Positions 28,480-29,130 of a stretch of 64,000 nt of DNA are shown in pieces. Origin of the DNA: the human T2T-CHM13v2.0 reference genome, Homo sapiens; the NCBI GenBank assembly GCA_009914755.4, contig CP068257.2, positions 35,008,001 through 35,072,000 of the forward strand, read 5' to 3'. Position numbers and translations under genes: made by a program. Every line of letters starts with the position of its first letter. Positions within the stretch are counted from its first letter, which is position 1. Under the pieces are notes generated by a model. That model was not told where the DNA came from. It made no database searches and was given only the letters and a program-made list of their open reading frames with translations.

Positions 28480-29130
28480 GAAGCAATTTAGTTGGAACGT
28501 GCATCTAGGCCTCCCATTACTCCCTGGAGCTCCATCACGGGAAAAATCCTTTACATGGATCCGTGACTCTGGGCCTGAGTGCCACGGTTTCAGGACGCGG
28601 TCAAGCCCTAAGTCAACGTTTCCAGAACAAACACCCGCGACCAGAAGCGGCAAGGGCCGCCAACACACCACATCACTCTCCCGGCCAGGGCCAAGTCCTG
28701 GTAGGAACATGATTATCATTCCTGACGATCTGCCGTGCCGGGCTGGCTGCTCTGATACCCGTCAATGGGCTCATTCAGCCAGGGCCCGGTTTTGCATATT
28801 ATTCTTAATAAACATTCATAGCCCAAGCCATAATGGCTCTTTCAAGGCTCCTGCTTTGAATGCGTGGTAACAACAGAGTGCCTTTGTGTACTTACATGTA
28901 AAAATACACTGGCCACCCTGTTGATACGCAGCATATATATTTATAAATATTTATCACCAAGTCATGGCTGACATTTTCAAAATGCTGCTTTTGAAGTAGA
29001 CCTCGTTTTTCTGTCTCCCAAGCTGAGAGGCCAGACGAGGTTAATTAATCCAATTTTGCCTAATAATGTGCAGTGTAATGATCTCCATGCCTTGGTTTAT
29101 TTGTCAAGGGGGAGGGGGCTCCACGGAAAG
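28480..29130. promoter_or_regulatory. Candidate enhancer-like conserved non-coding block: repeat-free, unusually CpG-retaining (about 17 CpG in 320 bp), followed by clustered TAAT/homeodomain-type motifs
   Basis: acgtgcatctagg...ccgtgactctgggcctgagtgccacggtttcaggacgcggtcaagccctaagtcaacgtttcc...cccgcgaccagaagcggcaagggccgcc...ctgccgtgccgggctgg...cccgtcaatgggctcattcagcc...ttaattaatccaattttgcctaataatgtgcagtgtaatgatctcc. Confidence 0.3.

What the first reader, a model, noticed from the sequence alone, without database searches (positions are those of the whole stretch)
28480..29130. Repeat-free, CpG-retaining block with clustered TAAT motifs - candidate developmental enhancer
In a window otherwise depleted of CpG, this ~650-bp segment keeps about 17 CpGs in 320 bp (hand count; obs/exp well above the bulk genome level). 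It ends with a dense run of homeodomain-type sites (ttaattaatccaattttgcctaataatgtgcagtgtaatgatctcc). CpG retention outside CpG islands usually means purifying selection and/or germline hypomethylation. No ORF or splice-like structure explains it.
Basis: partly seen in the sequence, partly recalled or inferred. Interest (0 to 1): 0.5.

Follow-up and report, generated by a model that had tools for sequence, protein, structure and literature searches.

The report
Conserved mammalian enhancer-like non-coding element
This roughly 640-bp stretch of primate (apparently human) DNA is a real, single-copy, non-coding element kept nearly unchanged from primates to rodents, most likely an ordinary gene-regulatory enhancer, but its many CpGs are its least conserved positions, not the reason it is conserved.

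Summary
Window 28480-28800 has 17 CpGs in 321 bp (GC 0.56, o/e 0.69), against o/e 0.23 for the window and 0.215 outside Alus. It is the most CpG-dense 300-bp window in the 64 kb. The TAAT cluster at 29040-29085 is real.

I recovered orthologous contigs through spurious ORF calls in public assemblies: an African ape, two Old World monkey lineages, three other placental mammals and a muroid rodent. The block 28480-29115 is strongly constrained. Non-CpG divergence to Old World monkey is 0.9%, against 5.1% in the flanks (p=3e-8). The AT-rich core 28790-29115 is 94% and 91% identical to two distant mammals whose flanks are 18-30% diverged or unalignable.

It is non-coding: there is no conserved ORF, no Pfam hit and no Rfam hit, and it is not a repeat.

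The CpGs themselves are not conserved. Of 22 window CpGs, 10 are lost in monkey, and only 3-6 are CpG in each non-primate. CpG-context sites diverge at close to the flank rate.

Best reading: an ordinary distal cis-regulatory module, made of a conserved core of transcription-factor motifs plus a weak CpG-island-like shoulder whose CpGs turn over. Enhancer activity, tissue and target gene could not be tested, and the locus could not be mapped. Interest is low to moderate.

The parts
28790..29115 (.). Deeply conserved AT-rich core, read as the transcription-factor-binding module
   Evidence: Identity to the window is 97.9% (Old World monkey), 94.2% (L010) and 91.4% (rodent-like L013). Non-CpG divergence to L010 is 3.7%, against 18-30% in the flanks. 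The longest run invariant in window, Old World monkey, L010 and L013 is 54 bp, ending at 28926. All consensus matches (POU-like TTTGCAT, FOX, TCF/SOX-like CTTTGAA, TATAAATA, GATA, MEIS, TAATTA, TAATCC) are unchanged in every species with sequence there. A 1-bp T-run indel and stops in all frames exclude coding.
28480..28789 (.). CpG-rich shoulder: a weak, minimal-criteria orphan CpG-island-like segment
   Evidence: 28480-28800 has 17 CpG in 321 bp, GC 0.56, o/e 0.69. Non-CpG divergence is 1/280 to Old World monkey and 13.9% to L010, about half the flank value. CpG positions turn over: 38 columns carry a CpG in some species and 26 of them in one lineage only. CpG o/e of the orthologous segment is 0.54-0.62 in Old World monkeys, 0.47, 0.69 and 0.35 in three other mammals, and 0.32 in the rodent. 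Conserved islands inside it are TTTCCAGAACAAACACCC and TTATCATTCCTGA (GATA+TEAD consensus).
29040..29085 (.).
   Evidence: 6 cores in 46 bp. GGTTAATTAATCCAATTTTGCCTAATAATGTGC is identical in window, both Old World monkeys and L010, with one T>G change in the rodent. The last part (CAGTGTAATG) differs at two CpG-derived positions between the window and all the others.
28858..28934 (-). Stable hairpin inside the core (probably incidental palindromic sequence)
   Evidence: 77 nt. MFE is -32.8 kcal/mol with z -5.28 on the minus strand, and -25.0 with z -3.44 on the plus strand. There are 0 compensatory pairs among 86 predicted for the core. There is no Rfam match at E<=1. 0.65% of 77-nt windows in the 64 kb reach its z-score, mostly microsatellites.
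27170..27590 (.). Neighbouring second conserved non-coding element (CNE-A), probably part of the same regulatory region
   Evidence: 86-91% identity to L010 per 100 bp, against 45-77% around it. Non-CpG divergence is 8.8% against 23-30%. It aligns in the rodent-like L013 in the same order and orientation as the main block.

Best explanation
The block is a single-copy, non-coding, evolutionarily constrained cis-regulatory module, most likely a distal transcriptional enhancer. It lies in an Alu-rich stretch of a hominid (apparently human) genome where I found no evidence of protein-coding sequence.

It has two parts:
- A roughly 325-bp AT-rich core (28790-29115) carries a dense, invariant array of consensus sites for homeodomain (TAATTA, TAATCC), POU, forkhead, TCF/SOX, GATA and MEIS-type factors. 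The inferred mechanism is that sequence-specific factors bind this array and recruit co-activators to a target promoter.
- An adjoining roughly 310-bp GC- and CpG-rich shoulder (28480-28789) just reaches minimal CpG-island criteria in catarrhines. It may raise the activity or promoter responsiveness of the core, as described for orphan CpG islands next to poised enhancers.

What is shown: constraint, non-coding status, single-copy orthology in at least five placental lineages, invariance of the motif matches, and fast turnover of the CpGs.

What is inferred: factor binding, enhancer activity, any role of the CpG-rich shoulder, and a developmental role.
For: - Constraint within catarrhines: 5/568 non-CpG differences in 28480-29100, against 5.1% in the flanks (binomial p=2.6e-8). 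With three lineages: 6/563 against 103/1958 (Fisher p=1.6e-6).
- Constraint across placentals: non-CpG divergence to L010 is 3.7% in the core and 13.9% in the shoulder, against 18-30% in the flanks. The core is 91.4% identical to a contig carrying B1 and B2 SINEs (a muroid rodent), whose flanks no longer align.
- Non-coding: the ORFs differ in length, start and frame between species. There are 1-bp indels. There is no Pfam hit for any ORF in or near the block, nor for any non-Alu ORF of at least 72 aa in the window. There is no Rfam hit.
- Single copy: only orthologues were found, plus one weak, probably spurious bacterial-looking hit, among 5.8 and 1.8 billion proteins. There is no intra-window repeat.
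- All 23 consensus motif matches keep the motif in every species with sequence there, except one TEAD-type match lost in L012.
- A second conserved non-coding element lies 1.2 kb away in conserved order.
- The architecture of a conserved binding-site module next to a CpG-rich module matches that described for poised enhancers (bioRxiv 10.1101/2020.08.05.237768). Species-specific orphan CpG islands inside constrained enhancers are common (PMC11170920).
Against: - No functional data of any kind could be consulted: no open chromatin, histone marks, reporter assays or transcripts.
- The locus could not be mapped, so the distance to promoters and the target gene are unknown. A promoter, a non-coding-RNA exon, a silencer or an architectural element would give the same conservation signal.
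- Motif matches are consensus strings I chose. They were not scored against a motif library or a background.
- The window is Alu-rich (16%), which is not typical of the gene deserts around classic developmental genes.
- The CpG-rich shoulder is small and weak (17 CpGs). Its CpG level is not shared by the rodent (o/e 0.32), and its CpGs decay at close to the neutral methylated rate. That argues against it being a protected, unmethylated island in the germline.
- Conservation outside placental mammals was not tested.
Confidence: 0.6

Rival explanations
1. It is the promoter, first exon or another exon of a non-coding (or unannotated) transcript. The conserved TATAAATA at 28942-28949 would act as a TATA box and the CpG-rich shoulder as a weak promoter island.
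For: A perfect TATAAATA is invariant in all species with sequence there. The adjacent segment meets minimal CpG-island criteria. A possible minus-strand exon with AG...GTGAGT boundaries lies at 29399-29712.
Against: The GTGAGT donor is CTGAGT in Old World monkey, and that candidate exon evolves at the neutral rate (4.5% non-CpG divergence). No splice-site pair bounds the conserved block. The TATA-like string sits in an AT-rich palindromic tract where such matches are expected. Human-rodent identity of 91% over 325 bp is unusual for long non-coding RNA exons (general knowledge).
Confidence: 0.12
2. It is another kind of protein-binding cis-element: a silencer, a Polycomb-recruiting or tethering element, or an insulator/architectural element, rather than an activating enhancer.
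For: The conservation and motif evidence is the same as for the enhancer reading. CpG-rich segments next to conserved modules can recruit Polycomb in pluripotent cells.
Against: The CpG-rich shoulder is weak and appears methylated in the germline, judging by its CpG decay rate. By eye I saw no CTCF-like consensus in the core, but this was not formally scanned. The sequence alone cannot separate these classes.
Confidence: 0.12
3. It encodes a structured RNA. For example, the 77-nt minus-strand hairpin at 28858-28934 could be an unannotated, deeply conserved microRNA-like precursor, or the core as a whole could be a structured non-coding RNA.
For: The hairpin has MFE -32.8 kcal/mol and z -5.28, and the MFE structure accounts for 22% of the ensemble. 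The whole core has z -4.96 on the minus strand and -2.90 on the plus strand. The hairpin coincides with the longest invariant run. It is among the few most stable non-microsatellite 77-mers in the window.
Against: There are 0 compensatory changes among 86 predicted pairs, and the covariation term is -0.81 kcal/mol. By my reading of the alignment against the fold, the rodent A>G change in AACAACAG gives an A.C mismatch in the stem of the minus-strand hairpin. Conservation covers loop and arms equally and runs for hundreds of bases beyond the hairpin, unlike microRNA loci. There is no Rfam family match even at E<=1. A second hairpin (28996-29048) is partly broken in L010 and L013.
Confidence: 0.05
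4. There is no function. The low divergence would be a local mutational cold spot or chance, and the CpG richness would be left over from a relatively young CpG-rich insertion (a retroelement or processed pseudogene).
For: CpG-dense non-island sequence in primate genomes is usually young repeat; the Alus in this window are the other CpG-rich spots. RepeatMasker could not be run.
Against: The block is present and colinear in at least five placental lineages, including a rodent, so it is not young. The five-fold reduction in non-CpG change recurs independently in catarrhines and in the deep comparisons, with sharp boundaries. There are no paralogous copies.
Confidence: 0.03
5. It is a protein-coding exon. 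The excess of CpG changes would then be synonymous-site turnover.
For: Low non-CpG change combined with freely changing CpGs is what a coding exon under selection can look like. ORFs of 157 aa (+) and 122 aa (-) cover the CpG-rich half.
Against: Nearly every nucleotide difference changes an amino acid in the + ORF (88% amino-acid identity at 94% nucleotide identity). The minus-strand ORF is 73-167 aa with different starts and stops and a frame change in other species. There is no Pfam family. The only database relatives are the same spurious ORF in orthologous contigs. The most conserved half has stops in all six frames.
Confidence: 0.01

Closest known systems
Mammalian conserved non-coding elements (phastCons/GERP-type constrained elements) acting as distal enhancers, such as those catalogued in the VISTA enhancer collection
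   Same: It is single-copy and non-coding. It is 300-600 bp long and 91-94% identical between primate and distant placental species, with flanks at neutral divergence. It is packed with invariant homeodomain, POU, FOX, GATA and TCF-type consensus sites, and another conserved non-coding element lies 1.2 kb away.
   Different: Nothing structural differs. Activity, tissue and target are untested here. The Alu-rich setting (16% Alu) is less typical than a gene desert.
Poised enhancers built from a conserved binding-site module plus an adjacent orphan CpG island (Pachano et al., bioRxiv 10.1101/2020.08.05.237768)
   Same: It has the same two-module layout: a conserved AT-rich binding-site core directly next to a segment meeting GC over 50%, length over 200 bp and o/e over 0.6.
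   Different: The CpG module here is much smaller (about 320 bp and 17 CpGs, against 893 bp in the Sox1(+35) example). It does not reach CpG-island level in the rodent (o/e 0.32). Its CpGs decay at close to the neutral methylated rate, which argues against an unmethylated germline state. Polycomb and H3K27me3 marks could not be tested.
Species-specific orphan CpG islands within conserved enhancers, i.e. CpG-island turnover (Kocher et al., Genome Biol 2024, PMC11170920)
   Same: CpG-island-level CpG content is present in catarrhines and one other mammal but not in the rodent or two other mammals, inside a constrained element. Individual CpGs are gained and lost. The paper reports that most orphan CpG islands are species-specific in pairwise comparisons and that many overlap constrained elements.
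   Different: Whether the catarrhine CpGs were gained or retained cannot be polarised with my species set. No activity difference between species is known.
Ultraconserved elements (at least 200 bp identical in human, mouse and rat)
   Same: It is a very highly conserved non-coding core near homeodomain-type motifs.
   Different: It does not qualify. The longest run invariant in window, Old World monkey, L010 and the rodent is 54 bp.

Membership tests
Constrained non-coding element (mammalian CNE) | Substitution rate significantly below that of neighbouring neutral sequence in several independent lineages | tested here: met
   Non-CpG divergence is 0.9% against 5.1% (p=2.6e-8). With three catarrhine lineages it is 6/563 against 103/1958 (p=1.6e-6). 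Against L010 it is 3.7% in the core and 13.9% in the shoulder, against 18-30% in the flanks. The core is 91.4% identical to the rodent.
Constrained non-coding element (mammalian CNE) | Not protein-coding and not a known RNA gene | tested here: met
   ORFs are not conserved. There are frame-breaking indels. There is no Pfam hit and no Rfam hit at gathering threshold or at E<=1.
Constrained non-coding element (mammalian CNE) | Single-copy, orthologous, colinear with its neighbours | tested here: met
   Only orthologous loci were recovered, plus one weak, probably spurious bacterial-looking hit. L010 aligns continuously across 26444-29937. The two conserved elements keep their order and orientation in L010 and L013.
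Transcriptional enhancer | Accessible chromatin with H3K27ac/H3K4me1/p300 in some cell type | not testable with these tools
   No epigenomic data could be reached, and the locus could not be mapped to reference coordinates.
Transcriptional enhancer | Drives position- and orientation-independent reporter expression | not testable with these tools
   This is an experimental test.
Transcriptional enhancer | Cluster of transcription-factor binding sites conserved across species | tested here: inconclusive
   There are 23 consensus-string matches, and all but one (a TEAD-type match lost in L012) keep the motif wherever orthologous sequence exists. The TAAT cluster is locally the joint densest in the window. 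However, I chose the motif strings myself, no library or background model was used, and binding is not shown.
CpG island | Sequence criteria: length over 200 bp, GC over 50%, CpG o/e over 0.6 | tested here: met
   28480-28800 is 321 bp with GC 0.56 and o/e 0.69. 28501-28800 has GC 0.57 and o/e 0.67. It fails stricter definitions that need at least 500 bp.
CpG island | Unmethylated in the germline, so that CpGs are protected from deamination decay (evolutionary proxy) | tested here: not met
   CpG-context divergence in the block is 26-28%, against 32-49% in the flanks. This is only mildly lower (Fisher p=0.014 with three lineages), while non-CpG sites are five-fold lower. 10 of 22 CpGs are lost in Old World monkey. 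There are 4 losses on the window's lineage since the ape split. Direct sperm or oocyte methylation data were not available.
Poised enhancer with orphan CpG island | Conserved binding-site module physically adjacent to an orphan CpG island | tested here: met
   The core at 28790-29115 abuts the CpG-rich 28480-28789. The island is marginal in size.
Poised enhancer with orphan CpG island | H3K27me3/Polycomb plus H3K4me1 in pluripotent cells, and contact with a CpG-rich developmental promoter | not testable with these tools
   No chromatin or 3D-contact data were available.
Ultraconserved element | At least 200 bp of 100% identity between human and rodents | tested here: not met
   The longest invariant run is 54 bp.
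microRNA precursor / structured RNA | Stable hairpin with a well-defined fold | tested here: met
   28858-28934 on the minus strand has MFE -32.8 kcal/mol and z -5.28.
microRNA precursor / structured RNA | Compensatory base changes, or a match to a known RNA family | tested here: not met
   0 of 86 predicted pairs show compensatory change, although there is almost no variation to test with. There is no Rfam match at E<=1.
Interspersed repeat (young CpG-rich insertion) | Multiple dispersed copies, similarity to a repeat consensus, and absence from distant species | tested here: not met
   There is no Alu or MIR similarity inside the block and no paralogues. The block is present in a rodent and three other mammals. 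A full Dfam scan was not possible.

The most novel reading that the evidence does not exclude
The CpG-rich shoulder is a lineage-specific (catarrhine) weak orphan CpG island grafted onto an ancient enhancer core, and it is now eroding on the window's (human) lineage.
- At the 18 sites where non-primates agree against catarrhines, changes are 10 weak-to-strong, 2 strong-to-weak and 6 other. Four of the weak-to-strong changes create catarrhine CpGs.
- The window's lineage has since lost 4 CpGs in the block since the split from another African ape, against none detected in the 3-kb flanks.
- If real, this CpG-island turnover would have changed the strength or promoter responsiveness of a conserved enhancer in primates, and again in humans.
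Probability: 0.1. Interest if true: 0.45.

Novelty: new member of a known kind. Interest (0 to 1): 0.25.

Why it matters
If the reading is right, this is one more conserved mammalian regulatory element. It would be useful to whoever studies the nearby gene, once the locus is mapped, but it is not surprising. Constrained elements of this size are catalogued genome-wide, and this one is almost certainly already in conservation and candidate-regulatory-element tracks, although I could not check that.

There is one methodological lesson. Local CpG excess correctly flagged a constrained element here, but for the wrong reason. The CpGs are the fastest-evolving sites in it, and the constraint sits mainly in the adjacent AT-rich core. 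The possible link to orphan-CpG-island turnover on the primate and human lineages is the only part with more than routine interest.

Tried and rejected
- Two of the three large protein-database searches were wasted.
- Scans of JGI metagenome contigs found no orthologue, either with a protein-pattern query or with an exact 21-mer from the TAAT cluster. A scan of bacterial and archaeal genome contigs with a 22-mer from the core also found nothing.
- Full-text searches for 12 sub-sequences of the core found no paper.
- Locus and gene identification failed. No Pfam domain was found in any non-Alu ORF of at least 72 aa across the window or near the block, so no coding exon was available as an anchor.
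- Rejected as coding exon, young repeat, known RNA family and ultraconserved element, for the reasons given under rivals and membership.
- The candidate minus-strand exon at 29399-29712 was rejected. Its donor is not conserved in Old World monkey, and it evolves at the neutral rate.
- P0011 (465 aa, 30% identity) looks like a bacterial repeat protein and was treated as a spurious hit.
- The apparent weak-to-strong bias on the primate lineage was not accepted as proof of CpG gain. Parallel CpG decay in the outgroup lineages gives the same pattern, and the 28480-28540 part of the alignment is poor.
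Full report
WHAT THE WINDOW IS
The 64-kb window is primate genomic DNA. It carries about 38 Alu elements, 10.4 kb or 16% of the window, and L1 ORF2 fragments. Overall CpG o/e is 0.234, and 0.215 outside Alus. A contig from a public metagenome assembly is 99.8% identical to it. A second contig is 99.05% identical, which is African-ape-level divergence. The window is therefore hominid and most simply human. It has no true CpG island, no Rfam family at gathering threshold, and no Pfam domain in any non-Alu open reading frame of at least 72 aa. 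I found no evidence of protein-coding sequence, and I could not name the locus or a neighbouring gene.

THE OBSERVATION
Window 28480-28800 has 17 CpGs in 321 bp, with GC 0.56 and o/e 0.69. The full interval has 22 CpGs and o/e 0.58. The windows inside it rank first among the 300-bp windows taken every 50 bp, ahead of a young Alu. The segment meets the minimal CpG-island criteria (over 200 bp, GC over 50%, o/e over 0.6), so 'outside CpG islands' is only true under stricter definitions.

The TAAT cluster has 6 cores in 46 bp. This ties with two other sites for the densest 50-bp window in the 64 kb. It is not significant over the whole 326-bp AT-rich core (p=0.09 by shuffling).

There is no Alu or MIR similarity and no intra-window repeat inside the block. 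A MIR-like fragment lies just to the left, at about 28285-28312.

GETTING ORTHOLOGUES WITHOUT A GENOME BROWSER
The tools hold no vertebrate genomes. However, gene callers run on host-contaminated metagenome assemblies had called spurious ORFs across the CpG-rich half.

The plus-strand ORF (28397-28867) hit one cluster. Its members gave contigs from two Old World monkey lineages and one contig nearly identical to the window:
- The two monkey lineages are 94% identical to the window and 97% identical to each other.
- The near-identical contig is L009.

The minus-strand ORF (28396-28761), searched with HMMER against 1.84 billion representative proteins, gave five more orthologous ORFs, and their contigs:
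- L014, an ape, 99.05% identical.
- L010 (5.9 kb), L011 and L012, three further mammals each about 73-80% identical to the window and to one another.
- L013 (4.7 kb), which carries B1 and B2 SINEs and is therefore a muroid rodent.

L010 aligns continuously across 26444-29937. In L013 only the block and a second element align.

CONSTRAINT
Between the window and Old World monkey, non-CpG sites in 28480-29100 differ at 5 of 568 positions (0.9%). The flanks differ at 5.1% (binomial p=2.6e-8). With three catarrhine lineages the figures are 6/563 against 103/1958 (Fisher p=1.6e-6).

Against L010, non-CpG divergence by segment is as follows:

| Segment | Non-CpG divergence to L010 |
|---|---|
| Flanks | 18-30% |
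| CpG-rich shoulder, 28480-28800 | 13.9% |
| AT-rich core, 28801-29115 | 3.7% |

The core is 94.2% identical to L010 and 91.4% identical to the rodent. Its longest fully invariant run is 54 bp, so it is not an ultraconserved element.

A second conserved element at 27170-27590 has 8.8% non-CpG divergence. It keeps the same order and orientation in L010 and the rodent.

IT IS NOT CODING, NOT A KNOWN RNA, AND NOT A REPEAT
- The ORFs differ in length, start and frame between species. In the plus-strand ORF, 94% nucleotide identity gives only 88% amino-acid identity.
- The core has stops in all frames and a 1-bp T-run indel.
- There are no Pfam families.
- There is no Rfam match even at E<=1.

The core does fold unusually well. 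Its z-score is -4.96 on the minus strand and -2.90 on the plus strand. It contains a 77-nt hairpin at 28858-28934 with MFE -32.8 kcal/mol and z -5.28.

Several results argue against a functional RNA structure:
- RNAalifold finds no compensatory pair among 86.
- By my reading of the alignment against the fold, the rodent A>G change in AACAACAG puts an A.C mismatch in the minus-strand stem.
- A second hairpin is partly broken in two species.
- Conservation does not follow a hairpin-shaped profile.
- Comparable z-scores occur in 0.65% of 77-nt windows in the 64 kb, mostly microsatellites.

I treat the structure as a by-product of palindromic binding-site sequence and keep a 5% rival.

THE CpGs
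CpG-context sites in the block diverge 26-28% between the window and Old World monkeys, against 32-49% in the flanks. That is at most a mild reduction, while other sites are reduced five-fold.
- Ten of the 22 window CpGs are not CpG in monkey.
- Only 3-6 of the 22 are CpG in each non-primate.
- Across seven sequences, 38 alignment columns in the shoulder carry a CpG in some species, and 26 of them do so in a single lineage.
- Six of the seven differences between the window and the ape orthologue in the block are at CpGs.
- The window's lineage lost four CpGs (28485, 28662, 28693, 29074). The near-identical contig L009, which ends at 29070, shares the first three, and I saw no comparable loss in 3 kb of flank. 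The Fisher p of 0.02 rests on approximate CpG totals for block and flank, and the numbers are small.

The CpGs therefore behave like methylated, weakly constrained sites.

The elevated CpG level is a regional property. It appears to some degree in all lineages but reaches island level only in some:

| Lineage | CpG o/e of the orthologous segment |
|---|---|
| Window | 0.69 |
| Old World monkeys | 0.54-0.62 |
| L011 | 0.69 |
| L010 | 0.47 |
| L012 | 0.35 |
| Rodent (L013) | 0.32 |

Whole-contig CpG o/e is 0.25-0.37 for these non-primate contigs.

At the 18 sites where non-primates agree against catarrhines, changes are 10 weak-to-strong, 2 strong-to-weak and 6 other. Four of the weak-to-strong changes create catarrhine CpGs. 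This could mean gain on the primate lineage, by CpG-island turnover or GC-biased conversion. It could equally mean parallel decay of ancestral CpGs elsewhere. My species set cannot decide.

WHAT IT MOST LIKELY IS
The anatomy is a roughly 325-bp AT-rich core next to a weak CpG-rich shoulder, with a sister conserved element 1.2 kb away. The consensus matches in the core are:
- POU-like TTTGCAT
- forkhead sites
- CTTTGAA (TCF/SOX-like)
- TATAAATA
- GATA
- MEIS
- TAATTA
- TAATCC

The GATA+TEAD pair TTATCATTCCTGA and a further forkhead match lie in the shoulder. Every one of the 23 matches in the block keeps the motif in all species with sequence there, except a TEAD-type match lost in L012.

This is the standard picture of a distal cis-regulatory module. 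The two-module layout resembles poised enhancers, in which an orphan CpG island boosts a conserved binding-site module (bioRxiv 10.1101/2020.08.05.237768). Species-specific orphan CpG islands inside constrained enhancers are reported to be common (PMC11170920).

My confidence levels are:
- About 0.9 that this is a functional constrained non-coding element.
- About 0.6 that it is specifically an activating enhancer.
- Lower that it is 'developmental'.

Binding, activity, tissue, target gene and any role of the CpG shoulder are all inferred, not shown.

NOVELTY AND VERDICT
The kind of element is thoroughly known. This instance is very probably already in genome-wide constraint and candidate-regulatory-element catalogues, although I could not verify that. 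I file it as a new (to this analysis) member of a known kind.

Interest is 0.25. The only thread of more than routine interest is possible CpG-island turnover on the primate and human lineages, with probability about 0.1.

Noticed in passing
window 27170-27590: A second conserved non-coding element (AT-rich; contains TGACTCATTGACA, TTAATCAAAGGGGCC and AATAAATAAAG). It is 86-91% identical to L010, against 45-77% around it, and it also aligns in the rodent contig in the same order and orientation as the main block.
   Followed up: partly
window 28858-28934 (minus strand): A 77-nt hairpin with MFE -32.8 kcal/mol and z -5.28. It coincides with the longest invariant run of the core. There is no covariation and no Rfam match.
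   Followed up: yes
window 28485, 28662, 28693, 29074 (also 28989): Substitutions on the window's own lineage since the split from another African ape. Four of the five destroy CpGs inside the conserved block, and I saw no comparable CpG loss in about 3 kb of flank. The four of these five sites that the near-identical contig L009 covers (it ends at 29070) carry the same bases there. The numbers are small.
   Followed up: partly
window 28480-28789: At the 18 sites where non-primate mammals agree against catarrhines, changes are 10 weak-to-strong, 2 strong-to-weak and 6 other. Four of the weak-to-strong changes create catarrhine CpGs. This could be GC-biased gain or parallel CpG decay in the other lineages.
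   Followed up: partly
window about 28285-28312 (minus strand), extending to about 28330: A fragment resembling the MIR core (TTCAATAACTGTTGGTTGAATAAATGAATG), present in all mammals sampled. It is an ancient repeat directly left of the conserved block.
   Followed up: partly
window 29399-29712 (minus strand): An exon-like segment with a polypyrimidine-AG acceptor, a well-placed ATG (MEGKEFLSSPS...) and a GTGAGT donor. The donor is CTGAGT in Old World monkey and the segment evolves at the neutral rate, so it is at most a lineage-specific non-coding exon.
   Followed up: partly
window 29153-29162: A perfect kappa-B-type decamer, GGGATTTCCC, just outside the conserved core. It reads GGGGTTTCCC in monkey and GGGGTTTCCT in L010, and it is absent in the rodent.
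   Followed up: no
window about 18800-19030, 19370-20010, 36590-37120, 39625-39950: Long TA/CA-type microsatellites, often next to Alu tails. They give the most extreme RNA-folding z-scores in the window.
   Followed up: no
window 18944-19219 (-) and 31432-31818 (+): Fragments of the L1 ORF2 C-terminal region, visible in translation (for example ...[30 protein letters not shown]...). Pfam did not report them at E<=0.001.
   Followed up: no
L013 1-600: B1 and B2 SINE matches identify this orthologous contig as muroid rodent. L010, L011 and L012 matched none of the SINE consensus sequences I could supply, so their taxa remain unknown.
   Followed up: partly
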